Source: Yuukianura sp. NJ FZ-2021 (Eukaryota). Taken from it: a stretch of 64,000 nucleotides of DNA. The stretch is from positions 186,001 to 250,000 of the forward strand of contig CM102286.1 in the NCBI GenBank assembly GCA_046563655.1, read 5' to 3'. The position numbers and the translations under genes are program-made. Shown piece after piece: positions 31,595-61,304 of the stretch; the stretch's first letter is position 1; each line of letters starts with the position of its first letter. Below the pieces are notes generated by a model. It was not told the origin of the DNA, searched no databases, and worked only from the letters and a program-made list of their open reading frames with translations.

Positions 31595-32348
31595 GATTCA
31601 TTCACCTCCCTTCTTCAACAGTTGACCGGAGATATTGGGGAAATAAAGGGGTTATTAACCTTAGCTGACGTTAGTAACAGTAGCGGAAGTGACCTGGTTT
31701 CGGCAAAAGCGGGCCTTGAACTTGTTATTTGTGAACAATCTAAGGTAATCTAAAACTAAATAGTTTCGGTTATTCGGTGGACAGAACAGAACATTGACAT
31801 TTGACGTTAGACGTGTAAGTGAATAAAAATTTGAAAAGAATTCCCGCCATTCTGTCTCAAGTGCTAACACACTCCTGTGCCTAAACCTCAGATAATGCAT
31901 ACAAATTCCAAACCAATGTTTTCTCATTTTCTGCAAAACCCCACAAAGTTTTCAAATTCCTTTTGTTCGGAATTTGTCGGCCGAAATTAGTTAAGTTACG
32001 CGTATTTTATTATTAGTCATTAAAATTCAAATATTCTACAAAATCTCCGTTGATCCAATCATAATTACTCAACGCATGAAATGATTTTCTTGCGGACACA
32101 AAATACTCTGCACTCTGAAGTTGGTAGAAGTTATAAAAATACAAATTTTGCAAAAACACTTATATTAATGAAGATTATTATATTAAATAATTCAAATTTC
32201 GTTGCATGCGAAGCTTCGCCATTTTTGTTCCTAAGGTGTGGCTTGAAAAGGAATCCAGGCCAATGCCATCCCAAACCCAAAGCGAAAGCGCAGCACAGCA
32301 TCTCTAAAAAAGAAGTTCGTGGACGAAACTTTTAAAAACATTTAAAAA

Positions 32349-34889
32349 ATGAATTTTGTGAAAATACTACTCATCTTTGTCTACTATTTCCTTGTACTAT
32401 CGGAAACTAAGGAAGTGAGGTTTTTCGAAGGCGTGAATGCCCTCGTAGCAGAATACGGTGACTCGGAAGTGCTTATTGTCAAACTCGGTCCAAACTCAAC
32501 GTATGACCTTGATGTGGGACCGATTACTTCTGTTCCGTCCATGATACTTGACCGACCAATACGGGAATTCCGAGTTCACAGGGCATGGCGAAATAGTAAT
32601 TACTCAATGGCCTTGTTCGTAGTGGATCAACAAACTAGATTGGAGGAGATGCTTGATTTTACGGTATTCTTCATGCATTATTACCCGGATCCGGCAGGTT
32701 ACAGGTCCATGTACGTCAATATACTGCTCGACGACCCATATCGACAACTGATTACAGATCTACCGCCTAGAATATACGACTTACCGAGGCAACACATGTT
32801 CGTGTCGCATTATGTGTATCGGCAGTTCGCCAAACGGGAAAGCATCAAGACCAGTTACTATGAGCTCATCGATGTAACAATGTCAATCCGTAACGCGCCG
32901 TACACCGATTATAGCTACAGGTTTGTTGGATATACGTATGTTTCATTTGCACAGCAAGTAGAGATGGGAGCGTGTCACAATGAATCGAGGACGGGGTCAT
33001 CATGTAGATCCAAGGTTGACACGATCATGGAACCGTTTCTGGACGGACTCATAGTTGAACCGGGTAAATATTCTGATTGTAAAGGCATCGACAAGCACTG
33101 CTTAAAGGAGGTGACCAAATTGTACAGAAATCGATCCTTGTTACAAACTGACCCCAGGTTTCATCGTATCAAGGATATTATGCGGGCACACTTTGGGTCA
33201 CCGGCTACCAGGGCAAAGGCAAAGTCAAAACTCTTGTCTATTACAGATACCCGGGAATTGATCCAACGGCTTCTAATGGAAGGAGTTGACTTGTGGTTTT
33301 TCTACGCAAACAGTTCTGATCCAAAGAATGGGATTGGTACTAATTCGAACGCCAATTTGTTATCCCGCATGACGCTGGAGACACTGGGGCCTGAGGCATT
33401 TGTCGATGACAGGTACCGTGTACATCGGTCTATCTTCCAAATCGGCACGAAGTGGATGAACTTTATGACGTGTGACGGGGTTCATCAACGACTGACGTTC
33501 ACGTTCTACGTGGCGCCTTACGACACGACCTCATGGATCGTCTATGTTGCTTGCATCACGCTAATTTTCCCTGTTGTCGTACTGTTATACAGAAAGTGGA
33601 GTTTGGCGCCGCCAGCTACGTGGCGTGAAAACGTCCAAATCATGCAGGAAGTTGTGTTCTTTAATGTCGCTGCAACATTTGACATTGGGGAAAGCTTGCC
33701 ACGCAGCCTTCAAAACGTTGCTGGGGCGATGCGAGCGACTACATTTGTTCTTGGACACTGGCTCCTACTCATGGTCGTACTAGGCGGGGCTTACAAAGGA
33801 ATTGTGACTACCGAATTGACATTACCCGCAAGCATTACTCGAACGCACGTCAACGTCACGGAAATGCCCGCATTCGTATTTTATGCCCCAGACGCTTACA
33901 TGAAGAGGCACCGGGCTTTAATAAACTTAAACAGAAGCGTTCTTGGACCGTATGGGCAAGACTGGAATGACATTTCAAATCTACGCCATTGTCTTTGTTA
34001 CCCGAAGCTCTACACGGAAATCCTGAGACTTGGCGAGAGGTTTTGTACGAATTATGAATTTCGAGACAACAATTGTTCCGTACTGCACCGTGTTTTTGCT
34101 GAGATGAACCAATCCATTCCGACCAAGATGCCTCCCGGGTTCTGCGAATATACCTTCGATGATTCTAGAGTCAAAATGATGGATCACAGTTACAGACAAA
34201 CCGGCAGTTTGAATTTAACTGCCTTTAAAAGGCCAAAATCCTATTTCTTAGTGGCAATTCGTTGTGACCCGATATTGGTCGTGGCCAGTAAGAAGGTTCT
34301 GCACAAGCCTCTCACAATCTCGCCCGAACCATTTGCTTACGGAATTGTTGCAGAAAAAAGCAGAGTAGGACCTTTGTTTTCTTACCGCTATGCCAAACAA
34401 AGTCTCCGATCGTACTATGAGGGCATTGTGAACCTCACGAAATCTTGTGACAAGGTGGGGTACATTGACTACGACGACAATTTGGACAAGATCTTGGCGA
34501 TTTCAGAGGAGATGGGTGAAGGTCCTTATAAGAAAGGGGAGTCCAAAATCTTCAAGATGTGGGACGGTTACAGTTTGGCTCATTTTCATCGAGCCGCCAC
34601 TGCCCGGATGTATCGACAGTTTCATCTTGTGGCTCAATCCGGGATTCTGCCTTACTGGACCCAGTGGCAAAGTCGCATTGAGGCATTCGCTTTGGCTTTG
34701 GATCCCACTGAACACATTCCTTTATCCCACAACGTTCCCCATCACTTCAAGCCCGTTAAATTGTCCTCCAACATCCAAACCATTTTTGTTGCTTGGGCGG
34801 TTTCCCTTCTCTTTTCCCTCCTCGTTTGGAGCGTAGAATTAACGCGCGTCTTTGTCTCAGTTGCAAAGCAAGTGTTTTGGTTCCTTTAG
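32349..34889 (+). CDS. Intronless divergent ionotropic receptor (IR)-like protein, 846 aa
   Basis: Single ORF with a signal peptide, NFMTCD, FYVAPYD..SW, TM segments, GAYKGIVTTELTLP, QSGIL and a C-terminal TM; same motif set as the 18-21 kb gene. Confidence 0.8.
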   Translation: MNFVKILLIFVYYFLVLSETKEVRFFEGVNALVAEYGDSEVLIVKLGPNSTYDLDVGPITSVPSMILDRPIREFRVHRAWRNSNYSMALFVVDQQTRLEEMLDFTVFFMHYYPDPAGYRSMYVNILLDDPYRQLITDLPPRIYDLPRQHMFVSHYVYRQFAKRESIKTSYYELIDVTMSIRNAPYTDYSYRFVGYTYVSFAQQVEMGACHNESRTGSSCRSKVDTIMEPFLDGLIVEPGKYSDCKGIDKHCLKEVTKLYRNRSLLQTDPRFHRIKDIMRAHFGSPATRAKAKSKLLSITDTRELIQRLLMEGVDLWFFYANSSDPKNGIGTNSNANLLSRMTLETLGPEAFVDDRYRVHRSIFQIGTKWMNFMTCDGVHQRLTFTFYVAPYDTTSWIVYVACITLIFPVVVLLYRKWSLAPPATWRENVQIMQEVVFFNVAATFDIGESLPRSLQNVAGAMRATTFVLGHWLLLMVVLGGAYKGIVTTELTLPASITRTHVNVTEMPAFVFYAPDAYMKRHRALINLNRSVLGPYGQDWNDISNLRHCLCYPKLYTEILRLGERFCTNYEFRDNNCSVLHRVFAEMNQSIPTKMPPGFCEYTFDDSRVKMMDHSYRQTGSLNLTAFKRPKSYFLVAIRCDPILVVASKKVLHKPLTISPEPFAYGIVAEKSRVGPLFSYRYAKQSLRSYYEGIVNLTKSCDKVGYIDYDDNLDKILAISEEMGEGPYKKGESKIFKMWDGYSLAHFHRAATARMYRQFHLVAQSGILPYWTQWQSRIEAFALALDPTEHIPLSHNVPHHFKPVKLSSNIQTIFVAWAVSLLFSLLVWSVELTRVFVSVAKQVFWFL

Positions 34890-35970: not shown

Positions 35971-38900
35971 TTAGTTGTAGCCGAACTTGGGGTTGTTTCT
36001 CACTCCGAAAGGCAGAGAAGGGGCTCCATAGAGTCCCGGTGGGAGCGTTGGTGGCTCCGTTGTGGTTCTCTGGGTGGGGCATCGTGGGTCGAAGCTACCT
36101 GGGTAGCATCGTGGTGCTTGAGTGGGTGGTGGTGGACATCTCGGATCAGCGGATCCCGGGTAACAGACTGGTCTGCTGGTGGTGGGTGGTGGGCATCGTG
36201 GGTCTGTGCTGCCCGGGTAACAACTGGGTGGGCATCGTGGGTCGCTGGATCCTGGGTAGCATCTGAATGGTGGTGGTGTGGTGGGGTAGCTGCCTTGAGA
36301 GTCAACCTGTTCTTCGTCCTCATCAGGGCGGGAAGTGGGTGGGACGTATGGGGGGCGGGTGGTCTGTTGTGGGGGGAAATAGGGCGCTCGGGTGGTCGGT
36401 GGGGCGACGTATGGTCTGGCTTCACCTTCATAAGTCACTTCAGCATTGAATCCGTTCTTCCAGTCAGCAGTGTACCTAAAAAACAAAAAAAAAGGTTGAC
36501 CTTTGACCTTGTTTCTTTAGCTGACCTTCCCCAGAGGGGCTAAATGTCAAATACAGCGTGGATGACATGAGCTGTGGTAGCCCATTTTCGAATTGATCTA
36601 TTCTTCGGGACGTTTTAGAATAGAGCCTGATAGCTCAAGGGTTAGAGCTCTTCCTGGAGTAAAGAGTTCTAGGTTCGAATCCCACTCGGTTCTTTATTTT
36701 TTTCTACACTTTTGGTTCTTTGTGTTTCAAACTATACGAGCCATGAACCTCACAGCAGTTGCATTTGGAAATGGAATGTGACAAAGTGGCACTTACTTGA
36801 CAATTTGCATACGACCATCAGCCATAAGTGTTCTGTACTCTCCTATAAAAATGTAATAAAATTGGAGGGAGTAACTAAAATGCTCTGAATGTTTGGTATT
36901 TATGTTGACAAGTGACAACTAACTAACTAAGTGCCTTACCCTTGACGACTTCGCCGTCACTGTCGGCCTTGTGTGCAAAGTCATTTCCAAAGTCATCTTT
37001 CACTGCATAAGTAAAGTCGTAAGGCATTCCGGGGGCATGGTCTTGATCCTAGAAAAAAAAACAGAATTTGAAAAACGTTTAAAAACACAAAATTTCAAAA
37101 AAAAAATCGGGAAGTGGAGCTAGACAGGTGACCTTGCGCCGAAGAAGAAGCTACTGGAATTCCTTGACTTCTCATTAAAAATGAGACTTTGAAAAATAAA
37201 TGAGTGTTGTCAGCGTCTGCGCACTCCCACTTGTCGGAATGAGTGATGGTAGGGAGGCTGTGAGTTTGAAATGTGTTCAAGTGCTCATCTTCTGCCTAAT
37301 TTCCCAATCACTAATCAATTTCCAAATTGTAAATTGCAATTTGCAATCTTACTCATCTTCCTTCCGCGTTCTACCACTGTGCCATTGAGATTTGGGGTGC
37401 GCATGCGCCACTAAGGACACCAACTCATCTTTTCCTACTAAATCGTGCTCAATTTTCTCATTTTTTTGTAAATTCCGAAGGAGAGCTAATTGAAATGTAG
37501 AGTAAATCAAATGATTTGAGGAATTACATGGACACAAACATTTCAACTTTTTAAAAAGTTGTCCAAATTGTATCAAAGTGACCTCAGAAACTGGTTCTCT
37601 TGCGTGTTTTTTTTTCATTTCAAAATTTGAAATGACATGATGGAATTATTCTGGAGGCTGAGCATGCGTCATGGAAAATTGTTAGTTTGTGGCGGAAATC
37701 TACAAAACGTTTTGAAAAGTGATTGATTTTTAGCAACTGTTGTGATTGATTGATGGTTTTCGTGTAAAGTCTAAAGTAATTGTCGCTTCTGCGCAACTGT
37801 TTTGTTGTGTTTGAGCAACATTGGATAACTCAATAGTTGGAGAGATGATCGGAGTGTAAAAATTGATTGCAGTTTCCAATCACTTTCTTGGCGCTCTTTC
37901 TTGAAAATCGTGAAATCCACAATTTCGTCAACCTCCAACTGCTCATCGTTTTTGAGCCAATTGGGAACACGACCAACAAAAATTTAGCGTTGAAAAGTTT
38001 TGAGTGGCGCCAAGGGCCCAAGGGCCCTTCTGTGAACATGACTTTGAGGAAGTTTTGATCGGCAGTGGAAGGAGACAAGTCAAAGTCTCCAATTTTTCAT
38101 ATTTTTTGTGCGAATATTTTGCAAATGAGGATTGAATTAATTTGGCATGTGCCAAATAATTCAGAGACTAATGCAATTAAGTCATTGCGCAACTCCCGCT
38201 GTCTCAATGCTCCTCATGAGCCAATTCCATTATCAAATGTGGGTTTCATTCTTTCCAATCTTAAAAGATCAATTTTTTAAGTTTTCAAGCTCATTTCACC
38301 ATTTATTTTTTGTTTTGGCGCTCATTTCAACACTTTTGGCTCAAAAGTGGTTTATTTGCTGCTAAAGTGATTCAGAATTTGAAATTGTGAATTAAGTGGT
38401 TTATGGAATTATGATTTTTATCGGTGGAATGATGCCATGGACAGCCTGTGAATCGTTGGGAACTGGCGCATGTGCAGAAGGCAAAATGCACAAGAATAGC
38501 CTCTTTTCATTAAATTCTAAACAAAGAGTGGGAAAAAGTGAAACTGTTTCTGGTTCAGCCCAAAGGTTAAACACTTTCAGAGTTGTTGACAACAAAGAGT
38601 CGCTGTGTCCGCTTTGTCAGAGGAATGGGGTCGCCTCGTGACCTTCCATTCCACTGGAGGTCGGACACTTCTGCCTCATCTACGCAATGTCATCTCGTCA
38701 AGCCAGTTTCGCACAACACCCAAAGCGACATGTGACACATTTAGATCAACATGTCTCTTCACACTTCAACTACTAGCCTGTGGACCAATCACAACCTCGC
38801 AAAATGGACCAATCGTAGCTCTTAAAAATGGACCAATCAGAGCTCTTCAGAATGCTCCAATCAGAGCCGTTCTAAACGAACGAATTGATGGACTTTCGAA

Positions 38901-43832: not shown

Positions 43833-46685
43833 TTACTTTTTTCTCCAGAGCGTGAGTTGGGCAAAAGTGTGCTGGAACTTGCGTTTTGTTTCTCTGATTA
43901 CAAATTCGACGTCTCTCGGTGGACAAATGAGGTCAAAGGACTTGCTCAGAATCTGTTCCAGCCTTGTAAGGGTCCACACGTTTTCGCCCCCCGCGTCCTT
44001 GAAGCCCCCCAACCACTTTGACTTTTGAGTGTGTTCTGCTAGCCAAGTGTAGGGGGAGCTAAGGGCTAACACTCCCCCTGAACGAATTCTCTTTTTAATG
44101 GACTCTAGGAACTCCAAGGGGTCGTACAGGCGGTCAATCAAGTTAGCAGCAATCACGAGGTCAAAGTCAACAAGAGTTTCCTAAACAAAAAAAAAGTCAA
44201 AAATAAGCAAAAAGTCAAAATTTTACTTTTCACTTTTCAAAAATCAATGACATTACGGCATTTCCTCGCCTATAACACTCGTTATATCTGACAAATTAAA
44301 AAAAATTAGACGCAAAAAACAATTTTTTTCCCTCAAAACTTCAGATTTTTGTTGAAAAATTTTGATCAATGTGCTAAACTGTAGTCGAAACGGTTTTAAT
44401 CAAATGAAAATTCATCAAATGATTTACGAGTGACGTTTTGAGGTTTGTTTCACATTCATTTATCAAAAAGTAAAATGTAAATAGAAAGAAATTAACTTAT
44501 TGACCATAAAAAGGTAGGAAACCTTGTGAAATGCGTAAATTTGTTGAAGTTGTACGTTTTCGGGCTTATTTGGGTATTTTGAGGATTTCTGACTGCGTGT
44601 TACACGTGGCTGCATCTTATAGGCGAGGAAATACCTTTTTTTTGTGATGTAGTACTTTTTAATTGTTTTTAAATTTTACTTTTAAATTGCAGGCGTCTCC
44701 CTGGACAAACTTGACCTTGTTGACAATTTGGGGAGTGAGGTCAAGCTGGGTCAAGGTCACTTGATTGAAACTGACCAAGTCCCCCTCCTCCACATTCTGC
44801 CACTGGATTCTGCCTCTCTGCTGCAAACTGACTGCTGATTGGATGAATCTCACTGAAAAGTCCACGCCCACAACTTCCTCAAAATGGCGTGCCAATTCGA
44901 AACTTGCTCTACCCACCGCTGCTCCCAGGTCCATCGCCTTTATTTTCGGGTGGGTACCCATGGCATTCAATGCATGTTGCACAATGGTCACTGGGTAATT
45001 GGGTACCCCGAGGTATTTGTGTCCAAAGTGGAACTCAAGATACATTGTTAGCAAAGAGTCTGTTTCGTAGTACGCAGTCTCCTATTTCGCTTTTTCGGTA
45101 CTTCTGATGTACCGAAATCCAGCGTGTTGGTAAAAGTGTCTCCTAAAAGCGTATCTGGAGAAATGCAGTGCTGCGTTGCCCGTGGTAACCCATGACCCCC
45201 CTTTGATCAAGTGATGGTCGCCGTCAAATGTCGGAGTAGAAAAGTCGTCGTAGGCTGGATGTGGTTCGAATCCAGCCAATCCGCTGATGGCCGATTCACT
45301 CCACTCCCAGCAGTTCCCAATCAAATCGTAGAATCTGCCGTGTTTGAACTTCGTCACTGGACAACTAGAAGCAAAATAAGCCAAGTCAATGTTTCCTGGA
45401 CACTCGGCTGACCAATGAGGATACTCCATTTCGGGAACTTCGGAATTCCGGAGGAGGAGCCATTCGGCCTCAGTCGGAAGTCTGATTGGTTCATTGGTTT
45501 TGGCTGCCAACCAATTGCAGAAGGCCTTTGCTTCAAAGTAGTTGACCTCCACTGGCCAATCCCAAGGCATGTCAATCACTTCGACTAAACAACGCAGCTT
45601 CATTTGACCTGAATTAGTTTTTATCCAGAAGCGGGGCATTGCCGCCTGCTGGAATTGAACCCACCGCCATCCGTCTTGTGGCCACCACTTTTCTTGGTCG
45701 TAGCCACCGGTTGCCACAAACTGCTCAAACTCATGGTTTGTCACTTTGTACACCGCAGCAGAGAAACTTGCAACATTTTGTACTTGCTGTCCAAATTCAT
45801 TGTCCCACCCGTAATATTTTGTACTGTACCTACACTTCCCTGTAATTTCAAAAAAAATTTTTTTGCACAAATTTTGAAATTTTGAATTTGTAAAATTTTA
45901 CCTATGTCAACAGTTCCAGCGGAGACTGGGAGTAGCTGATTGGTTGGCGGAGTGCCGGAGAGTGGACAAATGGACCAACGAGGCTGTTTGTGGACCATGT
46001 CCAGCGGAAGTTGACGAATGAGGACACTCGAAGTTTCTAAGTGGACTCTCTCGTGTTCAATGCCCATCAGAATGATCCACGCTGGGTCATCCCACGTCAC
46101 AGGAATTTTCATTGGCATCTTCTCAATCACTGAATTCACAACAGCACGAACCTAATCCAAAAAAAAGTGTTTTCAAAAAACAAAATTTTAAATCTAAAAC
46201 GTAAAATTTTGAGTTTTAGAGTTGAAAGTATAATTTACTTTGTTGCGATAGTCTCTGACTGCCAGGACTGTAGGCCAGTTGTAGCTGTTTTGGTCGAGGT
46301 CATCCCAGGTCAACTCGTCCACGCCCACGGCACAAGTGGACTCGATCAAGGGGTCAACACGGTCACTCCACAGTTTAGTAGCCACCAACTTGTTAATGAA
46401 GAAACAGGCTGTGTGACCATAGTAGAAGATCAGAGGATGTCTAAAGAAAAAAATTTGTTCAAAATTTTTGAACAGTTTTAAAAAATGAAAAAAATTGACG
46501 TTATCTGACCTGAGTGGATCTGCTCGTGCGTAGTAGGATTCGTCTTTTGACAGGAGCGTAAACAAGTCTTCGTAGATGGAAAAAGTTTGTTCAAAGTATT
46601 TTTTGAGCTCCTGTCTTTTGTCTTCGGGGTCACCAGAGGTCAAAAGTTGCGTTTTTAGTCTCGAGCCGTAACTCAAATCCATCAT
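43833..46685 (-). CDS. ovoA: Ovothiol synthase OvoA (5-histidylcysteine sulfoxide synthase plus SAM methyltransferase) with one in-frame TAG at 45082-45084
   Basis: Five exons 46685-46510, 46440-46239, 46151-45902, 45839-44680, 44180-43833 (711 codons). Motifs: LRHPLIFYYGH, GVDELTWDDL, MGIEHERVHLETSSVLIRQ (iron-binding His triad), YGWDNE, RLPTEAEW, GNCWEW, HPAYDDFSTP, YAFRRHFYQHAGFR; methyltransferase DLGAAVGR, GVDFS, QGDACNL, ANLIDRL, SPYTW. Confidence 0.93.
44256..44635. mobile_element. MITE (Tc1/mariner-like) in ovoA intron 4
   Basis: TIR GGCATTTCCTCGCCTATAA / TTATAGGCGAGGAAATACC (one mismatch); the left end is preceded by TA. Confidence 0.7.
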
Positions 46686-47375
46686 TTCTCAACAAGAAAT
46701 CTCCGAAAATGTTGGAAATGTTGTTGAAAAGTAGAAAGTGTAAAGTTGATGAGGAATTTTGTGAATTGCCTCGTGCTACAACTTTGTGCCGACTGAGGTC
46801 ATACTCCCACTTTCTTCCCATTTAGTCCCATTTTGGTCTTATTCTTAGTCTTAAGTCTCAAGGACACTTTCATTTCCATTTGAAAAGCAAAAGTGACGAG
46901 GTCACCAAAGGTCACGCGTAACCACACTTTTATCACTTCTGCTATTCATACAGCCTCAAAACCTCAAAAGTGAATGGAATCAAGTGACGACGGGCGTGTC
47001 CCACTTATCGACACAATTTCTGAAACCGGCTTTCCCCAAAAACTTTCCACTCAAAAACATTTTGACGCCAAAAATGTTTATTCTGTTTTAACACAAACTT
47101 AAAAAAAACTGAAAAAAATAATTAAAAGTATAAAAAAAGTGACAAGAGATGATACACCTCGACCTCAGCAGTATACAAGGAAATGAAAACAGAATTCCAA
47201 AATTTGTGGAGAAAATTTGTATACTTGTCCAGCACTACCCAGTTTGTACTGGGATACTGGATAATACTGGACAAGTATTTGTTACCATAAACTGTTGATG
47301 TAGAAAAGTGGATGACTTTTTATCTCCGTCGTTACATAACTTGTTGTGAATTCTGTTCTTTTGAATGGTCGATTT

Positions 47376-49693
47376 CTAGAGGTTATCGTATTTGGCCCCG
47401 CTCCAGTCCAGCAGCCTGGACGTCTCTTTCGCTGATGCTGGAATCGCTGATTTCCTCTTCACTTTCCAACTGAATCTCCACATGTAAAATACAGCGATCA
47501 CCAACTAAACACACAAACATGTGCTACTCAAGTTTTCATTTTTTGAAGTTTTCAAACTAGTTTTCACTTGTTTCAAATTTGAAACTGAAGAATTTAGTTG
47601 ATTACTGAGATTAAGAGGAGTCCGACGCTGAAGAAAGCCCCGCCTTGAAACCCGTAGTTGTCGTACAAAACTCCAGCGATTGGAGAACCAACGCTGAAAG
47701 CGCCAGCGAAGAACCCCAAGTAGCATCCAGACACCAGACTCATCGTCTGCGACCTCTCACGCACCTCATCTCCACTAACCAAAAATAAAATTTCACAAAA
47801 ATTTAAAAAAGATTTCCAAAATTTGAAAATGTTGATGTTTTACCTAGCAGTGTTGAGAGCAGTGACAAATCCACCAATGAGAGCAGCCCCCGTCCCAGCA
47901 GCAGCCAATCCAATACCAACACAAGTACCTACAAAGGAGCTGCAATTCAAAAACACACGAAATTTAATAAAATACATGTAATAAAATATACAATAATATA
48001 AAATATGATAAATAAAGTATTTTTTTGTTTACGGAGTCCAGTTGAAGAGCGGGAGTGGCCCAATGAGAACATTTCCAGGAATGTCCAGCAACAGTCCAAG
48101 AACCACAACATAAACTGGATTGACTTTTGTCACAAGACGACCCCACAGCGGCAGTGGAACTGCGTACAAAAGACCTGACAGCCCAAACACAAGTCCAACG
48201 GCTACCGGACCTGCATCAAACTAGCACAAAATAAATAGTTAACTTACATTATGTTCAACAGTTTAGATTTTTTTTAAATAAATGTTCTGCTTTTATATCC
48301 TTCAAGTGTCGTATTAAGTGGCGAAAACTACTTTATGCAACGAATTTGTCTGTCCTTTTGTCTGGCTATTGGTCAGCGACGATTATGCGAGAAACGGCTC
48401 GTGCATTTACCAATTATCAGCCGTTTGCTATTGCAGCACCATCTTTCCCTACTTTCGTATACCGGAATTTTGCGCTACTTTTGTACACCGGAATCTTTCG
48501 CTACTTTTGTATACCGGAATCTTTCGCTACTTTCGTACACCGGAATGTTTCGGTACTTTCGTAGAGGGGTTTACATTTTTGTTTGAAATGTTACCGTGTG
48601 AGTGAGGAGCGGTGTCCAGAGAGTGTAGTTGAAGGCCATTGCAACCTGTACGCCCAGCAGCATGACGAAGTTCACAAGAATCGCTGGATCCTTGAGAATA
48701 GTGAGAGCACTCTGCTTCTGCGTCGGTTGAAGAGGTTCAGGCGTAAGCCAAATCACAAACGGAAGCATCACGCCAAGAAACACGTTCAAAAGACCAACAA
48801 CGATGAAAGGAACGCAGAAACCACCAGCCTACCATAAAGAAACAAAACAAACCAAAAATTTCAAAGATTTCAAAAAAAAAATAAAATGAATAAAATGACA
48901 TTTTGAAGATAAAACTTTTGTGCTTACCATATACCATGTAGAGTGCTCCACCAATCGGAGGGCCCACAGAGTACCCAATCGCCTGACCCATCTGAATTGT
49001 GGCCTATTTACATTTTACGTTAAATTAAATATTAAATATAATGGTTATTAATTGAAATTATAACATTGGAATATTGAAATATGATTAAGACTTGGACCTA
49101 CCATGATCATGGGCACATATTTAGGAAATTCGAGTGGGATAAGGGTGTACATGGCCACAAAGGCCGCAGAGCATGAAAAGGCTTCAGCCACTCTGATGAG
49201 GATGGAAATAAAAAGAAAGAGATCCAGATCCGGGAAGCGATCCACGAAGCCAAACGCCACCACGGACGCCCCTTGCACCACCACGCCACCAACAAACGCC
49301 CTCTTCACTCCAGTCACATACACCTAACAAAACGTCAGCAAAATATAAGTTCAAATGCAAAATAGTCAAATATAAAATGGTCAAAAGTGAGTTACGAGTG
49401 AACTCCAGAGGGGACATGAAACCACGACAGCAGCCTCGTACACACCGAAAACCAAACTGAACTCGGTGGCAGAAGCGTTCTTGGACTCCGCCTGTAAAAG
49501 TGGATGAAGTTAATTTTCTTAGGCTATTAACGTATTGTTATAATATGTTAAATATATTATGTACTATTTTAAAGTGTTTTGTGATTACAAGTTTAGGATA
49601 GAATGGTTGTTGGAGTGTGTAGATGACTGAACAGAGGAAGTTGACCGTGAAGAAGAAGGCTACGAGTGTCCACTGTCTCCTGGACAGATCCAT
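47376..49693 (-). CDS. MFS transporter, SLC18B1 (vesicular amine/polyamine transporter)-like
   Basis: Multi-exon hydrophobic protein: MDLSRRQW..QQPFYPKLAESK, LVFGVYE, FGFVDRF..IRVAEA, IGYSVGPPIGGALY, GFFAGAFSVGSPIAGVLYD.YGF. C-terminal ETSRLL dileucine and YDNL sorting-like motifs. Confidence 0.8.
48450..48563. repeat. 26-bp minisatellite, ~4.4 copies, in a transporter intron
   Basis: Unit TACTTTYGTAYACCGGAATCTTTCGC repeated head-to-tail. Confidence 0.9.
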
Positions 49694-50314: not shown

Positions 50315-51798
50315 TCATTTTTTGCCGTAGCCTTGGTTACTTCGTTGACCCACTCTCGCTCCGTAGTTTTTGGCCGGTGGGGAAGGTGGGGCCGAGTATG
50401 AAGATTGTGGTGGGGCCGAGTAGGAAGGTTGCGACGACCCACCGGAATAAGAGTTCCCATGCTCTTCTTGTTGATTGTACTGTTGAGGTGGTGGAGTGTA
50501 AGAAGTAGCCTGTGTTTCATATGTCGATTGTTGTGCTAGAAGTCCGGCCCCACCGGGTGGGCCGTAGCTGCTGGTAGGAGTTGAGTATTGGGGTGCCGGG
50601 GTGAAGCCACCTCCGTTTTTGTATCCTTGGTTTCCTCCACTTGGCCCACCGTAGGATTGTGATGGTGCTCCGTAGTTACTTCCAGGAGCGGAGGGTGGTG
50701 GGCCATAGTTGGAGGGTGGGGCTGAATACTGAGCATTTCCTTGCGATGGAGCTCCGTAGTTTTGACTCGGAGATCCGAATTGGGCTGGTGGGGCTCCATA
50801 AGAAGAAGATGATGGTGGGGCTCCGTATGAAGATGAAGGTGGGGCTCCATAAGATGAGGAGCCACCGGAGTTGCCACCGGAGTTTCCGTAGCCACCTCGA
50901 TTCGGTTCTGGAAACTTGGCTTCTCCTTCTAAAATTCCGAAATGAGGGATTTTAAAAATCAAGTTAATGAAAGTCTAAATTCTAAAATCCTAAAATCCTA
51001 AATTCTAAAAGCGAAAGTCTATAAATTTTGAAAATGAAGCCTATAAATTTTATGAAAGTCTATAAATACCGTAGGTCACTTCGGCGTTGAATCCGTTTTG
51101 CCAGTCAGCAGTGTACTTGACAGTCTGAGTTCTTCCGTCCGGCAGAAGAACTTTGTACTGTCCATTGACGACACTTCCGTCGCTCGTCTCCTCTCGGTTG
51201 TAGTCGTTTCCATAGTAATCCTTCACGGCATAAGCAAAGTTGTAAGGCATCGGAACCTCCTGCATCTAGTACAAAAGAATTATTATTATAAATAATTCAA
51301 TTAATAGAAAATAATTAATGGCTTACTTGTCCGTAGCCACCGCTGTTGCCACCATATCCACCTTGGTTGCCACCAGGGGCTCCATAGCTAGACGATGGAT
51401 TGTTGTATCCTTGACCTCCTCCGTTGGAATAAGAGTTTGATGGGGCGCCATAAGAACTGGAAGGACCGTGGGAATTTCCTGGAGCTCCATACGAACTACT
51501 GGGCATGTGGTAGGATTGTGGTGGGGCCGGGTTGAATGAATGACCTTGACCCCCTGACCCACCATATCCTTGGCCAAATCCACCCCCTGACCCACCGAAC
51601 CCACCACCAGACGGAACAGGAGGCTCTCCTCTGGTCAATCCAAGTACCAGTACAATCAACGCAAGACGCTACAACAAATTCAGAAAAAAAAAATCAAAAA
51701 CTCCAAAATTATGTGTCTTTTTTCTTCAAAATTCATTTTTTTTTCCAACATTTCAACTTTTCAGTTTTCTAGAAATGAAAAAATGATTGTACCTGCAT
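50315..51798 (-). CDS. Pro-resilin-like cuticular protein (YGAP repeats flanking an RR-2 domain)
   Basis: Exons 51798-51793, ~51669-51328 (signal, SSSYGAP repeats), ~51265-51074 (MPYNFAYAVKD..GQYKVLLPDGRTQTVKYTADW.NGFNAEVTY), ~50928-50315 (SSYGAPP repeats). TATA at ~51978-51985. Confidence 0.92.
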
Positions 51799-54800: not shown

Positions 54801-55827
54801 TGCAAGAATAACGAGTGAATTTTAATTCTGAGTTTGGATTACTTCAACCTCTGACATATGTTGGTGTGGTGCGTTAAAAATCGAATTATAAAATTGAATT
54901 TATAATTTATAATAATGCACATAAAAAAAAATGAATTTGTACGAATCAAAACAAATACAAACCCAGATAGGCTCTTTTTCTACTTCGTATATAATATTAT
55001 ATTATATTATTAATTTTTATTATTCTTATTTTGATTTAATAATTCTAGTCTATTTTTCATATACAATAATATTATTGTTGTAATACATAATAGCCTCAAT
55101 GGTATTTTTTTTTCGGGGAATGTGTAAACGTATGAATTTTCAAATGACGGAATTTCCCGCCGTATATTTGTTGGGGTTGCACAAGCAGGTCCACATCACC
55201 CCCGCTTACCCGATCCATCGCATATGGGCATAATTAAACAATTAAATTAAATTCTGGTGGCAGCTGGAAGCTAGGGACTCGCTAATCCTCGGAATCCTCC
55301 GTGGTTTTCAGTAAGGAGTTTTTTTTAGTGCCTCTGCCTGCTGCTGATTAATTCCATTTTGACAGGTTGGATGTTTTGAGAGGTAGTCATTTGCACTGCC
55401 GGGATATCATCATCATCGGGTCATCAATCTCATCTGGCCATCTCCACACTCGCTTATCTTCTCCTGTTGTGGTAAGGTTAGTAACAATTAGTCACCCCCT
55501 TTGCTTAATTAAGTGACTCACACGAAGACTACAGTTTGGTTTTGGTCTTTTAAACTGACATTGACAGCCTGTCAGTCATAAACACTCAAACCACTTTTCC
55601 CTAATTTTTTAGGTTCTGGAACCGTCGGTGACCTGGGTGTAACCAAAGCAAAGCTGGAGAAGAATTCAGAAAGTACTAAAAAGTAGTAAGTGACAGTAAA
55701 AAGTAAGATCTTGAACGATGTTTTGATAATAAGTGACTCAAAGTCTTTGTTTTTAGTTGACCAGCCTACCACCATAACACGACGGAAGGATCATCTGACG
55801 ACTGGCATGTAACTTAGGCGATTGACG

Positions 55828-58800
55828 ATGGCCCAGCATTACAGTTTATATACGACCGGATCTCGGATATGGATTCACGAAAAGGAGCGATGGAAGAGCG
55901 GTGTAGTTTTGGCAGACTGCGATGGCAAGACACTCGCGTACAAATGCGACGACGATGGAACGTCCAAAGTCATTAGCTCGTCACCTCTACAACTTCCACC
56001 TCTACGAAATCCAGACATTCTGATTGGTCTGAATGACTTAACATCCCTGTCATACCTCCATGAACCCGGAGTACTTTTTAACCTAAAGTATCGATTTACG
56101 GAGATGAAGACCATTTACACTTACTGTGGAATTGTGCTGGTGGCTATCAATCCTTATCAGAAAATAGGCATCTATGGAGTGGAGACAATGTGGACATATC
56201 GGGGTCATGCCATTGGGGAGTTGGAGCCACATGTATTTGCAGTAGCCGAAGAAGCATTCAAGGAAATGGAACGGTAAAAAAATGTCAAACGTTTCTGAAA
56301 CGTTTTTCATAAAAATTGTTTTCTTTTGCAGGGCATCGCTGAATCAATCGATAATCGTTTCCGGAGAAAGTGGTGCTGGGAAAACAGTATCAGCGAAGTA
56401 TGCCATGCGGTATTTTGCTACCGTGGGAGGTGCTGAATCAGTGACAAGTATTGAACGGAAAGTACTCGCTTCGCAGCCAATCATGGAAGCTATTGGGAAT
56501 GCCAAGACAACTCGAAATGACAACTCAAGTCGATTTGGAAAATATGTCGAACTTCAATTCAGTTCCATTTATTCAATCATGGGAGCCTCCATGCGAACTT
56601 ACCTTCTGGAAAAGTCTCGCGTTGTGTTCCAGGCTCCAGGTATAAGTTTAAATCCAAAAATCGAAATCATGAAAACGTTTGTTTTTGTGTTTGAAACGTT
56701 TATTTTGCTACAGGAGAGCGAAACTATCACATTTTTTATCAAATCCTGACATCTGAAGACGACGAAGTATCTGATCTGTCTCTTCGATCAACATCTTTCA
56801 ACTACACCAAGACAATGACAATCAAAGGTGTCAATGATGCCAGTCAATTCACAGAAACCGTTCAGTCCATGAAACTACTAGGATTTGGAATCGATGATCG
56901 TCGAAACTACTTTAAACTACTCGCTTCCATTTTGCATCTTGGAAATATCGTGTTTGAGCAAAAAGATGAAGGTTGTGTCATCCCCATGCCTTCAACTCCA
57001 CTCACAGTTCTCTCCAACCTCCTCTCCATTTCTGCCTCGGAACTCATCAAATGGCTCACTTTTCGGCGAATTCGATCCGCTCATGAAGAATTTCTGAAAC
57101 CAATGACCGTCGTGGAAGCAGAGTTTTCGAGAGATGCTTTAGCCAAACTCATGTACGACCTCAGTTTCAACTGGATCGTGGACAGGGTCAACGAAACTCT
57201 CAAAAGTGATGAAGAATGTTTCAAGTTCATTGGAGTTCTGGACATTTATGGATTTGAGACGTTCGAGGTCAATTCCTTTGAGCAGTTTTGTATCAACTAT
57301 GCCAATGAAAAGTTGCAACAGCAGTTCAACTCCCACATGTTCAAACTGGATCAAGAGGAGTACGCGAAGGAGTCGATTGAGTGGACTTTCATTGATTTCT
57401 ATGACAACCAACCCTGTATTGACCTCATTGAGGCCAAATTAGGCATACTGAGTTTACTAGACGAAGAGACGAGGATGCCAGCAGCTAATGACAAGTCATG
57501 GACCATGAAACTGTACAAAGAGTGTGCGAAATATGCCCATTTTCATACGCCAAAGAGAGCTGATGGAGAGGATTTTACTGTTGCACATTTCGCAAGTGAG
57601 GTAAGTATAGTAAGTAAGTAAGATAGCATAGCAGGTCATTAGCACGAAAACAATAAGCCCGAATTGAGCAATTTGGCAACAGTGGAACTGAATCTGAGTA
57701 GGTTTCATTGGTAATGTAGGTTCAGTGTTGCTGACTTATGGAATTCGCGTTTATTGTTTTCGTGCTTATTGTTTTCGCTCTTAATGTTTTCCGTACAATT
57801 ACATGGAACCTTATTTTTTCAGTAATCATAAGGTGTTGCTTTGACTATTAGCTTTGTAGAAGACTAAAATTAATCAAAAAATGATTGATGATTTACGACA
57901 TCACGAATGATAACAATTGTCATGCTTTTTTTTTTTATAGGTGAAGTACACGAGCAGTGGATTTTTGGAGAAGAATCGTGACACTGTCTTGGCAGATCAA
58001 ATTCAGACAGTCAAGAATTCAACAGTGAGTTTACAAACTAAAAGAAACTGAACAGGCAGACTGTTTTAAGTTTTAGTTTATTTACTTCGTTTGTTTGTTT
58101 GTTTTTTTGCTTCCAGAATCCTTTCATTGCCTCGATCATATCCATTGACACTTCGGCAGCCAGGAAGAAAACAGTTTCAACTCAATTCAGATCTTCCCTG
58201 ACTTCACTCATGACTTCTCTCAATTCTACAACTCCTCACTACATCCGTTGTATCAAACCAAACGACGACAAATTGCCATTCCAATTCGAAGATTCTCGTG
58301 CTCTTCAGCAACTTCGTGCTTGCGGTGTTCTAGAAACTGTAAGAATTCAGGCCAGTGGATTTCCAACACGGTGGACTTATATTGACTTTGCAAAAAGATA
58401 CAGAGTTCTCTGCAATTCAAAAGAAATTAAACGGAATGACCTCAAGGCCACTTCAATCGGAATCCTCCATCGAAATATCACGGACTCATCCACCTACAAG
58501 TTAGGCACAACAAAAATCTTCTTCCGCTCAGGCGTACTTGCCTTTTTAGAAAAACTTAGAAGTGCCAAGTTGCACGCCTGCATTCTCCGAGTTCAAAAAA
58601 CCGTGCGTGGGTGGCTGGCAAGACGACGATTTGCAAAGATCAAGAGAAGCTGTGCTCTTTTGCAACGATATGGGCTTGGCTTCTTGGCTCGACGACGGTT
58701 TCTGTTCATGCGTCAAACCGCTGCGGCTATCAAGATCCAGAAACAAGCGAGGATGTACATCATCCGCAGAGATTACGTCATGCTGCGGGATCTTGTTTCC

Positions 58801-61304
58801 AAATTGCAGACGCATTGTCGCACTTATCTGGCGAAGAGAAAGGCCCAAGCCCTCCGCGTTGAAAAAGCGACCATCACAATCCAGAAAAACGTTCGGATGT
58901 TTCTGGTCAGAAGGAAGTACGAGAGAATTCGTCGTGGAATTATCCTGCTCCAGTCATGCACGCGAAGATGGTTGGCCAAGCGGGAGTTGAAGACGCTGAA
59001 GTTAGAAGCCAGGAGTTTAGAGCATGTGAAACAACTGAACAAAGGCCTGGAGAACAAGATTATTGAATTGCAGTTGAAAATTGAAGGTCAGACGAAGGTC
59101 ATGCACAAGTCGGAAGCAATGGCAACTGAATTGGCAATATTGAAAAGTCAAGTGACACAGTTGAAACAACTGGAAGCTAAGCACAAGCAAGCATTAACGA
59201 CGATCGAGACACAGGCAGCAAGTATATTGAAGTTAGAGTCCAGTTTGAGACAAGAAACCGACGAAAAAGTGGATTTGGTTTACAGAAACAAGAAACTGGA
59301 GGGAGATTGTACCGATTTCAAAACGCGGCTGAGTCGGTTGGAAGCAGACAATTTGAAAATGGAAGAAGAAATTAAGAAACTTATGCAGCAACTAACTGGA
59401 TTCAATAATTTGAAAAACGATTACGAAACGTTGGAGCGGGAAAGAGACGAAGAACGGATGATCGGGCGAAACATGAAACCGAACAAAAACGTTCCGGTTC
59501 CTTTACCGCGTGTGAAAGCTCCACCTCCGACCGATACTTTTGTTAATACACTTCAAATTGAAAACGCCTTACTTAGGAAGAAGTTGGACGAAAGTACTTT
59601 GGATATCTTGAAATTGCATGACCTTGAAATGCAAAATGAGCAAGCACAGGCCAATTACAAGAAGTTGATGCTCAGTAAGAGTCCGAGTGACGAAGTATCT
59701 AGATTAGTGAAACAACAAACGGAAGAACTCGGATTAAAGAGGGAAGAAAACTTGATGCTGCGGAGTTTATTGAGTACTGGAAACAGCGATCGTGAAATCA
59801 TAACGACTTTGGAGCAACAGCTGACTGCTGAGAAACTGAATGTGAAGCATCTCCAAGAAGAGAACAAACGACTTCGTGGTTATGCTGGAAAGGAAGAAGA
59901 ATCTTCAGTTTACGAAACGGCAGCATATGAACTGAATAGTAATAGAATGCTGAATCATTCGCCAGCATCTTATACTGGATCAGTTACACAGATACTGCCG
60001 AGGAGAGAGATGTCGGTGGAGAATTATACTGGATTGCTCCAGTATGAACCTTCAGCTGAGCATCGAATACTCAAATCAATCTTGGTGGATTTGAAACCAG
60101 CGGTGGCTCTCACTCTGGAACCACCAACACTTCCAGCATTCATTATCTTCATGATGATCAAGTACATCGATTCTATCAATGATGACACGCGACTTCAACC
60201 ACTTTTCAAAAGTTTTGTCAAAATGTCAAACAAGGTAAAAATTTACAAAAATTAGGACATCACCGTCTGGCATAAATTCTATAATTTCTACAATTCTAAA
60301 ATCCTATAACTTCTATAATTTCTATAATTCATTTATAACTCAAACTCCCTAATATTGATATTTTTTAGGTGATACAAAAAAGAAATCAACTGGACTACAA
60401 CTTTCTGTGGCTGAGCAACGTTTTGCGTCTTTTACACAATCTGAAGCAGTACAGCGGTGAACCAGCATTTGTACGAGAAAACACCGCCAAACAAAACGAC
60501 CAATGCTTAGTCAATTTCGATTTGATTGAGTTTCGAAAAGGCCTAAGTGACATCGGACTTCGGTTCTACGTCGGTCTCATCAAAAACTTTGAAGACCTCG
60601 TGCAGCCCCTCATTGTGCCAGCAATACTCGAATCAAGTCCAGAACTATCTTCTGCCATGGTCAACTCCAAAGACAAATCAACTTCCATGGAGAAACTCAC
60701 GAGAGAACTGACACTCAACTACGATCTCCTCACTAAATTTCAAGTAGATGCAGAAGTAGTTGTGCAAATATTCAGACAAGTATTCTACTACCTCACGGCA
60801 GCATCCATGAACAACCTTCTTCTGAGAAAAGATTTGTGCAACTGGACGAATGGATTACAAATCAGATACAACATTTCTACGTTAGAAGAGTGGTGCAGAG
60901 ATAAAAATCTGGACTCGATTATTCCGATTCTTCAGCCGATTATCCAGGCCAGTCGATTACTCCAAGCCAACAAGTCGGAGAAAGACGTGGACTTTGTCTG
61001 TGAAATGTGCGATGAGTTGACAGTGAGTCAAGTGATCAAGATCCTCCATCTTTTTACGGCAGATGAAGAGGACCTCAGGATTTCACCTTCGTTTATTAAA
61101 CAAGTGCAAGAGAAGTTGAGTAAGCGGAAGGCTAGGAATACTGAGCGGAATGCTGGAGATACTGCGGAGATTCCGCAACAGTTGCTCATGGACACCAAGC
61201 ATCTACTGCCGGTCAAGTTTCCCTATCACCCCTCAAGCATTAAATTAGAAGAACTCAACATTCCAGACAGCCTCGGCCTCAACGACTTGGTCACAAAATT
61301 GTAA
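55828..61304 (+). CDS. Myo5: Unconventional myosin V (1592 aa; motor, 6 IQ motifs, coiled coil, DIL domain)
   Basis: Exons 55828-56273, 56332-56639, 56714-57600, 57941-58024, 58117-60234, 60369-61304, all in phase. [34 protein letters not shown], six IQ motifs, and DIL domain ([19 protein letters not shown]). Confidence 0.95.
57631..57810. mobile_element. Second copy of the 53.3-kb inverted-repeat element, in myosin V intron 3
   Basis: Arms AGCACGAAAACAATAA / TTATTGTTTTCGTGCT; internal TGGCAACAGTGGAACTGAATC is the reverse complement of 53381-53401. Confidence 0.65.

What the first reader, a model, noticed from the sequence alone, without database searches (positions are those of the whole stretch)
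43833..46685. Ovothiol synthase (OvoA) in an arthropod genome
Seen: full DinB + FGE-sulfatase + methyltransferase architecture with the His triad (YGH, HERVH) and the HPAYDDFS Tyr, four spliceosomal introns, and arthropod neighbours, so not contamination. Established: OvoA makes 5-thiohistidine antioxidants, is typical of marine invertebrates, protists and proteobacteria, and is absent from model insects. Inference: either a rare retention or horizontal transfer with later intron gain (compact ~711 codons, few introns). No OvoB-type lyase is in the window.
Basis: partly seen in the sequence, partly recalled or inferred. Interest (0 to 1): 0.8.

Follow-up and report, generated by a model that had tools for sequence, protein, structure and literature searches.

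The report
Bacterial-type ovothiol synthase in an arthropod
An arthropod genome carries a gene for the enzyme that makes the antioxidant ovothiol; the gene looks borrowed from bacteria and has since gained four introns, but this copy has a stop codon between its two enzyme halves.

Summary
The gene is real: five exons and four GT..AG introns on the minus strand (43833-46685). They splice into a 711-codon reading frame that aligns end to end with bacterial OvoA. All five active-site residues of the solved OvoA 8KHQ are kept (PMC10696552).

It lies in the ten-residue linker between the sulfoxide-synthase module and the methyltransferase module.

The host is arthropod-like: a split R&R cuticle-protein gene, and a myosin V whose best matches are arthropods.

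Origin is most likely bacterial:
- The 120 best hits are 46-62% identical; 10 of the 11 named rows are bacteria and none is an animal.
- In three trees the gene groups with P0107, P0053 and P0065.
- P0053 sits in a bacterial ovoB-ovoA operon.

I could not obtain labelled animal OvoA sequences, so vertical descent is disfavoured, not formally tested.

Differences between haplotypes are mostly synonymous on both sides of the TAG (19 synonymous, 10 not). The gene was therefore under selection until recently.

Whether the TAG is fixed, one allele or an assembly error remains open. No RNA data were available.

The parts
46510..46685 (-). Exon 1 (ATG at 46685; N-terminus of the DinB-like part)
   Evidence: TIGR04344 profile 3-48. 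The N-terminus is collinear with bacterial starts.
46441..46509 (-). Intron 1, 69 nt, GT..AG, phase 2
   Evidence: The junction gives ...ADPLR|HPLIFYYGH, which matches all homologues.
46239..46440 (-). Exon 2 (holds Tyr and His equivalent to Y68 and H71 of 8KHQ)
   Evidence: alignment to 8khq_A 63-129. TIGR04344 profile 50-116.
46152..46238 (-). Intron 2, 87 nt, GT..AG, phase 0
45902..46151 (-). Exon 3 (HERVH: His equivalent to H162 and H166 of 8KHQ)
   Evidence: alignment to 8khq_A 130-212. TIGR04344 profile 117-199.
45840..45901 (-). Intron 3, 62 nt, GT..AG, phase 1
   Evidence: A contig of run X5 (organism B) joins 45825 to 45900 with 75 other letters in between, which fits an intron at the same place (table 5).
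45085..45839 (-). Exon 4, first part: FGE-sulfatase domain with the catalytic Tyr of HPAYDDFS (equivalent to Y406). The synthase module ends here.
   Evidence: Pfam PF03781 E 3.2e-26. TIGR04344 profile 206-444, 347.7 bits. 8khq_A E 1.9e-90.
45082..45084 (-). In-frame TAG, codon 462, in the interdomain linker (equivalent to residue 462 of 8KHQ, whose linker loop is 456-465)
   Evidence: Linker limits are from PMC10696552.
44680..45081 (-). Exon 4, second part: first half of the SAM methyltransferase domain, in the same frame as the part before the TAG
   Evidence: TIGR04345 profile 1-129, 156.2 bits. Pfam methyltransferase families. PDB OvsM 9bxh E 7.9e-31 and 8khq 465-594.
44181..44679 (-). 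Intron 4, 499 nt, GT..AG, phase 0
   Evidence: Contigs of run X5 (organism B) cover both of its ends together with the flanking exons (records 26 and 27).
43833..44180 (-). Exon 5: second half of the methyltransferase domain, and the TAA stop (43833-43835)
   Evidence: TIGR04345 profile 132-242, 137.3 bits..
47508..49003 (-). Upstream neighbour on the same strand: exon-sized ORFs of an MFS-type transporter (context, not part of the gene)
   Evidence: Weak Pfam MFS_1 hits on three ORFs, E 1.6e-4 to 9e-3, all below the curated cut-off.

Best explanation
This is a bacterial-type ovoA gene (5-histidylcysteine sulfoxide synthase fused to a 5-thiohistidine N-methyltransferase). An ancestor of this arthropod lineage took it up from a bacterium, probably one near the Gammaproteobacteria. 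The gene then became a host gene: it gained four spliceosomal introns, took on AT-rich introns and partly host-like codon use, and was kept under purifying selection.

How it works (inferred from the family):
- The N-terminal DinB-like plus FGE-sulfatase module uses Fe(II) and O2 to join the sulfur of cysteine to C5 of histidine.
- A lyase encoded elsewhere removes the cysteine skeleton and leaves 5-thiohistidine.
- The C-terminal module methylates the ring to give ovothiol A.

In the haplotype assembled here, a TAG in the interdomain linker would end translation after the intact 461-residue synthase module. This allele would then give at most the unmethylated branch of the pathway. I read the TAG as a young lesion or a single allele, not as a sign of old decay.

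Shown: gene structure, domain content, residue conservation, bacterial affinity, host linkage and the synonymous bias.
Inferred: the transfer itself, enzyme activity, and the consequence of the TAG.
For: Structure and family:
- Searches give the gene model and the seamless junctions.
- NCBIfam pieces sum to 581.5 bits for TIGR04344 (cut-off 400) and 293.5 bits for TIGR04345 (cut-off 170), with full profile coverage. These are rough sums over exon pieces.
- 8khq_A matches at E 1.9e-90.
- The equivalents of Y68, H71, H162, H166 and Y406 are all kept (PMC10696552).

Bacterial affinity:
- In one search, 7716 of 8000 scored candidates passed E 0.001 and the best 120 are listed. 119 of them are 55-62% identical and one is 46%. 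Of the 11 rows that carry an organism name, 10 are bacteria and 1 is a protist; none is an animal.
- The same database returns named animals for the neighbouring myosin.
- Identity is 52-56% over about 700 residues for the 45 best printed rows.
- All 80 loci kept from species genomes have bacterial titles, at 53-59% identity.
- The 80 best metagenome loci are 51-61% identical and none is closer.

Trees:
- WIN+P0107 has support 98, 96 and 95. Adding (P0053,P0065) has support 98, 99 and 96. The three analyses are FastTree (109 rows), IQ-TREE LG+G4 (79 rows) and IQ-TREE C20-PMSF (48 rows).
- In one search this group lies in an 11-row clade (support 97) whose 4 labelled rows are all Pseudomonadota.
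- P0053's contig carries overlapping ovoB-ovoA, then dusB, an MFS efflux gene and srkA.

Host integration:
- Animal genes lie on both sides.
- Introns are 26% GC, against 48.5% for the coding sequence. Codon-use correlation is 0.51 with host exons and 0.11 with the bacterial relative.

Selection:
- Only 40 of the 204 differences were listed. They fall in 29 codons, 19 synonymous and 10 not, against 21% synonymous expected (P 4e-7). Downstream of the TAG the split is 6 to 1.
- Organism B holds the gene at roughly 92-99% identity, including intron 4.
Against: - The frame is broken by a TAG, so this copy cannot give a full-length enzyme by ordinary translation.
- I have no evidence of transcription or splicing beyond homology.
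- I obtained no labelled animal or crustacean OvoA, so the tree does not directly pit bacterial against vertical origin.
Only P0053 was shown to be bacterial.
- The AU test does not reject a tree in which the ten other members of the gammaproteobacterial clade stand together without the window's gene (p 0.365).
- Under the C20 model the link of the four-row group to the labelled gammaproteobacterial clades is unresolved (support 77).
- The careful bootstrap search did not finish.
- The synonymous bias rests on 40 of 204 differences, those the tool kept as best supported.
- The second sequence could be a recent paralogue and not an allele.
Confidence: 0.62

Rival explanations
1. The TAG is not what the animal expresses. 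It is an assembly or consensus error, or a minor allele, and the species makes a normal full-length, two-module OvoA and hence ovothiol A.
For: - The methyltransferase part downstream is intact and complete (TIGR04345 profile 1-242).
- It shows 6 synonymous against 1 non-synonymous haplotype difference.
- At least two haplotypes about 4% apart occur in the sample (48 differences and 7 gaps over 1141 bases in record 7).
- One contig of run X2 ends at 45083, one base short of the first letter of the TAG. A branch in the assembly graph would produce such an end. This is an inference only.
Against: - The window shows TAG, and none of the 40 differences listed lies at 45082-45084. Another 164 differences were not shown, so this is weak.
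- Substitution errors are uncommon in modern assemblies (general knowledge).
Confidence: 0.3
2. The gene is a decaying relic: a transferred gene that has lost its function, with the TAG as the first visible lesion.
For: - There is an in-frame stop.
- No OvoB-type lyase is in the window.
- The sample is polymorphic, so nonsense alleles can segregate.
Against: - There is only one lesion in 711 codons and no frameshift.
- All four introns keep GT..AG.
- All five active-site residues are kept.
- There is a strong excess of synonymous differences.
- The stop lies in the 10-codon linker, 1.4% of the gene, and so spares both folded modules (PMC10696552).
Confidence: 0.2
3. Vertical retention: this is the ancestral animal OvoA, kept in this arthropod lineage while most Ecdysozoa lost it.
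For: - OvoA transcripts were reported from 19 copepods and 9 malacostracans, and unpublished hits from 8 insects (PMC8623360; sections 2 and 3 and supplement tables read).
- I had no labelled animal sequences with which to exclude this reading.
Against: - No animal appears among the 120 best hits, although the database holds animal proteins.
- The gene groups with a protein from a bacterial operon.
- It has the bacterial length of 711 residues, with no inserts.
- It has 5 exons against 19 in sea urchin and 17 in other animals (PMC4768315, PMC8433421).
Confidence: 0.06
4. Contamination or chimeric assembly: a bacterial ovoA wrongly joined to arthropod DNA.
For: The nearest relatives are bacterial.
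Against: - Four AT-rich GT..AG introns interrupt the frame.
- Independent contigs run across exon-intron borders (record 3 spans 43852-45623; record 7 spans 45755-46900).
- A second organism label holds the same exon-intron structure.
- No bacterial sequence is closer than 62%.
Confidence: 0.01

Closest known systems
Bacterial two-module OvoA (solved example: OvoA-Th2 of Hydrogenimonas thermophila, PDB 8KHQ)
   Same: - Same domain order and about the same length (711 against 728 residues).
- The metal ligands H71/H162/H166 and the tyrosines Y68/Y406 are kept.
- The linker is at the same place.
- The FGE part matches at E 1.9e-90 (PMC10696552).
   Different: - The gene lies in an animal genome and has four introns.
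- The linker carries a TAG.
- There is no adjacent ovoB, whereas the bacterial relative P0053 has overlapping ovoB-ovoA.
OvoA of bdelloid rotifers, reported as regained by transfer from Gammaproteobacteria (Gerdol et al. 2019, known to me only as cited in PMC8433421; the paper itself is not held)
   Same: A bacterial-type ovoA inside an animal lineage whose relatives lack the animal-type gene. A gammaproteobacterial affinity is also suggested here.
   Different: The host phylum differs. I could not compare the sequences, so I cannot say whether the two events are related.
Canonical animal OvoA (sea urchin and others)
   Same: Same three-part architecture and the same presumed chemistry (PMC4768315).
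   Different: - Animal genes have 17-19 exons (PMC4768315, PMC8433421); this gene has 5.
- This protein is closer to bacterial sequences than to anything labelled animal in the searches.
Crustacean OvoA transcripts (Roncalli et al. 2021, PMC8623360)
   Same: OvoA in arthropods; the paper reports two separate arthropod clades.
   Different: - Those are transcriptome hits with no genomic context and no bacterial sequences in the tree.
- No annotated crustacean protein came up near this gene.
- Whether one of their clades is of this bacterial type is untested.
Split or truncated systems: stand-alone methyltransferases OvoM and OvsM (PDB 9bxl, 9bxh), and Bacteroidetes OvoA-like proteins without the methyltransferase domain (PMC8433421)
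   Same: - A synthase without a covalently attached methyltransferase exists in nature.
- The part after the TAG matches OvsM (E 7.9e-31) at least as well as 8KHQ.
   Different: Here the two parts share one frame and one exon. The second part has no evident way to be translated on its own in a eukaryote.

Membership tests
OvoA (5-histidylcysteine sulfoxide synthase / 5-thiohistidine N-methyltransferase) | N-terminal synthase module: DinB-like part plus FGE-sulfatase fold (NCBIfam TIGR04344) | tested here: met
   Exon pieces cover profile positions 3-444 with 36.8+97.3+99.7+347.7 bits, against a cut-off of 400 for a whole protein. Pfam PF03781 matches at E 3.2e-26. The sum over pieces is a rough measure.
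OvoA (5-histidylcysteine sulfoxide synthase / 5-thiohistidine N-methyltransferase) | Three-histidine metal site and active-site tyrosines (H71, H162, H166, Y68, Y406 of 8KHQ) | tested here: met
   All five align to identical residues. Residue roles are from PMC10696552 (passages read).
OvoA (5-histidylcysteine sulfoxide synthase / 5-thiohistidine N-methyltransferase) | C-terminal SAM methyltransferase module (NCBIfam TIGR04345) | tested here: met
   Profile positions 1-129 and 132-242 score 156.2+137.3 bits against a cut-off of 170. 8khq 465-594 matches.
OvoA (5-histidylcysteine sulfoxide synthase / 5-thiohistidine N-methyltransferase) | Both modules in one uninterrupted polypeptide | tested here: not met
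   An in-frame TAG sits at codon 462 in the linker. No intron whose length is a multiple of three can remove it without deleting conserved aligned residues (one search read).
OvoA (5-histidylcysteine sulfoxide synthase / 5-thiohistidine N-methyltransferase) | Enzyme activity and product (5-histidylcysteine sulfoxide, ovothiol A) | not testable with these tools
   This needs an enzyme assay or LC-MS.
OvoA (5-histidylcysteine sulfoxide synthase / 5-thiohistidine N-methyltransferase) | Distinction from EgtB and SenA sulfoxide/selenoxide synthases | tested here: met
   On the FGE exon the OvoA model scores 347.7 bits, against 128.4 for EgtB and 126.1 for SenA.
Horizontally acquired bacterial gene in an animal genome | Nearest relatives are bacterial and the gene branches among them | tested here: met
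   identities; trees. P0053 was shown to be bacterial. Nested against sister position is not settled (AU p 0.365).
Horizontally acquired bacterial gene in an animal genome | Physically part of the host genome (introns, host neighbours, independent reads) | tested here: met
Horizontally acquired bacterial gene in an animal genome | Excluded from the clade of vertically inherited animal homologues | tested here: inconclusive
Arthropod host | Arthropod-type genes on the same contig | tested here: met
   - The two halves of a Chitin_bind_4 (R&R) domain lie at 36926-37048 and 36400-36480, with 14.7+19.6 bits on profile 3-34 and 48-65. Each half is below the cut-off of 25 on its own.
- The named matches to myosin V with the highest identity are arthropods, at most 57%.
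- The lineage within arthropods is not resolved.

The most novel reading that the evidence does not exclude
Ecdysozoa lost the animal OvoA, and this arthropod lineage regained thiohistidine synthesis by taking a whole ovoA from a gammaproteobacterial associate. The stop codon in the flexible linker would then be a working feature and not damage. It would turn the fused bacterial enzyme into a stand-alone sulfoxide synthase that yields 5-thiohistidine instead of ovothiol A. Alternatively, low-level read-through would set the ratio of the two products. One of the two published 'arthropod OvoA' clades could be of this transferred type.
Probability: 0.12. Interest if true: 0.75.

Novelty: new member of a known kind. 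Interest (0 to 1): 0.5.

Why it matters
Ovothiol synthesis was long thought lost in arthropods. The only published arthropod evidence I found is transcriptome mining, which cannot exclude contaminants (PMC8623360).

This locus gives genomic proof that an arthropod carries an ovoA: it has introns, host neighbours and a second organism label. It also suggests that the gene came back by transfer from bacteria, as reported for bdelloid rotifers. That would be a second or third independent case of animals regaining this antioxidant pathway from microbes.

The stop in the linker makes a simple test possible: does the animal make ovothiol A, only 5-thiohistidine, or neither? If the stop turns out to be an error, the finding is an ordinary though well-documented domesticated transfer.

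Tried and rejected
- A short intron to remove the TAG. The only GT..AG span with a length divisible by three is 42 nt. It would delete residues that align to conserved positions, including the start of the YETD motif, so I rejected it (one search read).
- Read-through helped by RNA structure. The 110 nt from the TAG onward fold no better than shuffles (z -0.35). This gives no support and is not a disproof.
- RNA evidence. No RNA holder was listed, so nothing can be said about expression.
- Whole genome. None is held for this window, so I could not search for OvoB or a second ovoA outside the window.
The Atlas does not hold P0107 or P0329. get_proteins returns no names.
- My guess that the 44-row sister clade was animal OvoA was wrong. 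One search shows Contendobacter, Competibacter, Cyanobacteriota, Aromatoleum and protist records.
- AU test of nesting inside the gammaproteobacterial clade: not rejected (p 0.365).
- The careful bootstrap tree was unfinished after 678 s. Only SH-aLRT values are given.
- OvoB-OvoA fusions among the long representatives: no aminotransferase domain at E 1e-5 in the 6 tested.
- Gerdol et al. 2019 is not held.
- Earlier findings of this scan: nothing on this genome or on this sequence. The word search gave only unrelated bacterial and algal loci.
Full report
THE OBSERVATION

On the minus strand an ATG at 46685 opens a gene of five exons: 46510-46685, 46239-46440, 45902-46151, 44680-45839 and 43833-44180. 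It ends at TAA 43833-43835. The four introns are 69, 87, 62 and 499 nt, and all are GT..AG.

After splicing, the 2136 nt align end to end with bacterial OvoA proteins of 700-733 residues. Each of the four junctions closes on conserved residues without a gap, for example ...ADPLR|HPLIFYYGH and ...GDACNLK|ETLVDFDLVIAANLIDRL. The introns are thus confirmed by homology. No RNA run was available.

FAMILY MEMBERSHIP

- Pfam finds FGE-sulfatase (E 3.2e-26) and several SAM-methyltransferase families.
- NCBI's two OvoA models are covered completely by the exon pieces. TIGR04344 covers positions 3-444 with 36.8+97.3+99.7+347.7 bits. TIGR04345 covers positions 1-242 with 156.2+137.3 bits.
- EgtB and SenA score far lower on the same exon (128 and 126 bits).
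- The solved OvoA 8KHQ matches the FGE exon at E 1.9e-90.
- According to the paper on that structure, the metal is held by H71, H162 and H166, and Y68 and Y406 lie at the active site (PMC10696552, passages read). All five align to identical residues here.

Codon 462 is TAG (45084..45082). It is in frame, and the frames before and after it are the same. In the alignment it stands in a column that every one of the 17 aligned homologues fills with a variable residue, so it is not a hidden intron.

By the alignments to 8KHQ, the residue before it corresponds to 461 and the third residue after it to 465. The TAG therefore lies at position 462, inside the linker loop 456-465 that joins the synthase domain (7-455) to the methyltransferase domain (466-707) (PMC10696552).

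The linker is 10 of 711 codons, or 1.4%. I noticed that figure after the fact, so it should be weighed lightly. The RNA downstream has no unusual fold (z -0.35).

THE HOST

- The window holds a myosin V gene with motor, IQ and DIL domains, a glucosidase II beta-like gene, a MIF4G gene, an immunoglobulin V-set exon and a Tc5-type transposase domain.
- It also holds a cuticle-protein gene whose R&R chitin-binding domain is split by an intron. The two halves match Chitin_bind_4 positions 3-34 and 48-65.
- The named matches to a 308-residue myosin V exon with the highest identity are arthropods: a springtail at 57%, beetles at 53-57% and crustaceans at 50-54%. None is close.
- The host is therefore an arthropod with no near relative among annotated proteins.

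ORIGIN OF THE GENE

A search with the FGE exon scored 8000 candidates, of which 7716 passed E 0.001. Of the best 120, 119 are 55-62% identical and one is 46%. Of the 11 rows that carry an organism name, 10 are bacteria and 1 is a protist record; none is an animal.

Over the full length the 45 best printed rows are 52-56% identical across about 700 residues. A scan of one genome per prokaryote species kept 80 loci, all with bacterial titles, at 53-59%. A scan of metagenome contigs kept 80 loci at 51-61%, none closer.

In three trees the gene is sister to P0107, and the two join P0053+P0065.

| Analysis | Rows | WIN+P0107 | plus (P0053,P0065) |
|---|---|---|---|
| FastTree | 109 | 98 | 98 |
| IQ-TREE LG+G4 | 79 | 96 | 99 |
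| IQ-TREE C20-PMSF (quick) | 48 | 95 | 96 |

P0053 lies on a 428-kb metagenome contig. There an OvoB-like PLP enzyme overlaps ovoA and is followed by dusB, an MFS efflux gene and srkA, which is a bacterial operon.

In one search the four-row group lies in an 11-row clade (support 97) whose four labelled members are all Pseudomonadota.

LIMITS OF THE TREE EVIDENCE

- The AU test does not reject a tree in which the ten other members of that clade stand together without the window's gene (p 0.365).
- Under the C20 model the tie to the labelled gammaproteobacterial clades is unresolved.
- The bootstrap search did not finish.
- P0107 and P0065 have no names.
- I have no labelled animal OvoA. The tools that could name proteins were unavailable. 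My assumption that a large sister clade was animal proved wrong.
- Vertical descent is therefore disfavoured by several independent signs, but it is not formally rejected. Those signs are: no animal among the best hits, bacterial length and collinearity, and 5 exons against the 17-19 reported for animals in PMC4768315 and PMC8433421.

DOMESTICATION AND SELECTION

The introns are 26% GC and the coding sequence is 48.5%. Codon use correlates 0.51 with pooled host exons and 0.11 with the bacterial relative.

DNA contigs of three runs of one sample (organism A), and of a run labelled as another organism (B), cover the gene. Organism B's pieces are roughly 92-99% identical. They include both ends of intron 4. 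One contig replaces the region of intron 3 with 75 other letters, which fits an intron at the same site. The transfer and the introns would then predate the split of A and B.

A second sequence about 4% different is present in organism A. The tool printed 40 of 204 differences. Nine are intronic and 31 lie in 29 codons, of which 19 are synonymous and 10 are not, against 21% synonymous expected by chance (P 4e-7). Before the TAG the split is 13 to 9. After it the split is 6 to 1.

Both modules were thus under purifying selection while these sequences diverged. This argues that the TAG is young, is one allele, or is an error.

One contig of run X2 ends at 45083, one base short of the T of the TAG.

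MECHANISM (inferred from the family)

1. The first module joins cysteine sulfur to C5 of histidine, using iron and oxygen.
2. A PLP lyase removes the cysteine skeleton.
3. The second module methylates the ring.

No OvoB-like gene is in the window. Animals in general are reported to lack one (PMC8433421).

With the TAG, this allele would give a 461-residue synthase alone. Such arrangements exist in nature. Some Bacteroidetes OvoA-like proteins lack the methyltransferase (PMC8433421). Stand-alone methyltransferases OvoM and OvsM are solved, and they match the part after the TAG (E 8.3e-24 and 7.9e-31). A eukaryotic ribosome, however, would not normally translate the second part from the same message.

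WHAT IS ALREADY KNOWN

- OvoA was thought lost in arthropods (PMC4768315).
- Transcripts were later reported from 19 copepods and 9 malacostracans, with unpublished hits in 8 insects (PMC8623360; main text sections and supplement tables read).
- Transfer of OvoA into bdelloid rotifers (from Gammaproteobacteria) and into Hydrozoa is reported (Gerdol et al. 2019, as cited in PMC8433421; the paper itself is not held).
- Four searches of the paper library found no report of a bacterial-type, intron-bearing ovoA in an arthropod genome. The library lacks most subscription journals.

VERDICT

This is a real, host-integrated, bacterial-type ovoA in an arthropod, most likely gained by transfer. It is a new member of a known kind of event. 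It carries an unreported stop between its two modules, and the status of that stop decides whether the animal can make ovothiol A from this copy.

Noticed in passing
window 35971-37048 (-): A cuticle-protein gene. Its R&R chitin-binding domain is split by an intron, and it is followed by a long Pro-rich tail with repeated CYPGS.DPRCPP units.
   Followed up: partly
window 55813-61304 (+): A myosin V gene (motor, IQ, DIL). Its 308-residue motor exon is at most 57% identical to any named animal protein. That is unusually far for this conserved motor and points to a fast-evolving or poorly sampled arthropod lineage.
   Followed up: partly
window 32346-34889 (+) and 18110-19411 (-), 20277-21038 (-): Very long single-exon ORFs (847, 433 and 253 residues) with no Pfam match at E 0.001. 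The first two share a look: Cys-rich, with hydrophobic stretches. Their function is unknown.
   Followed up: no
window 22913-24328 (-): ORFs with a Tc5/pogo-type transposase DNA-binding domain (HTH_Tnp_Tc5, E 1.3e-10). This is a transposon remnant or a domesticated copy.
   Followed up: no
window 47508-49003 (-): Directly upstream of ovoA on the same strand lie exon-sized ORFs with weak MFS-transporter matches. The bacterial relative's operon also holds an MFS gene two genes after ovoA. I did not test whether the window's transporter is of host or bacterial type.
   Followed up: no
window 50315-51668 (-): Gly/Ser/Tyr/Pro-rich ORFs with repeated SSYGAP units and no Pfam match. They are probably structural (cuticle-like) proteins.
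   Followed up: no
L087 4125-7473: In the bacterial relative, the OvoB-like PLP enzyme and ovoA overlap by 14 bases, which is a tight operon. The lyase scores below the cut-offs of both the SufS and EgtE models.
   Followed up: partly
proteins P0329, P0390-P0501: A second, deeply separate OvoA type of about 800 residues. It occurs in Competibacteraceae, Cyanobacteriota, Aromatoleum and several protist records. Some members are fused to a PF01594 domain (about 1240 residues).
   Followed up: no
PMC8623360 supplementary file S3 (first record): By eye, the first copepod transcript listed seems to begin with a long extra coding region ahead of the OvoA part. I did not translate or test it.
   Followed up: no
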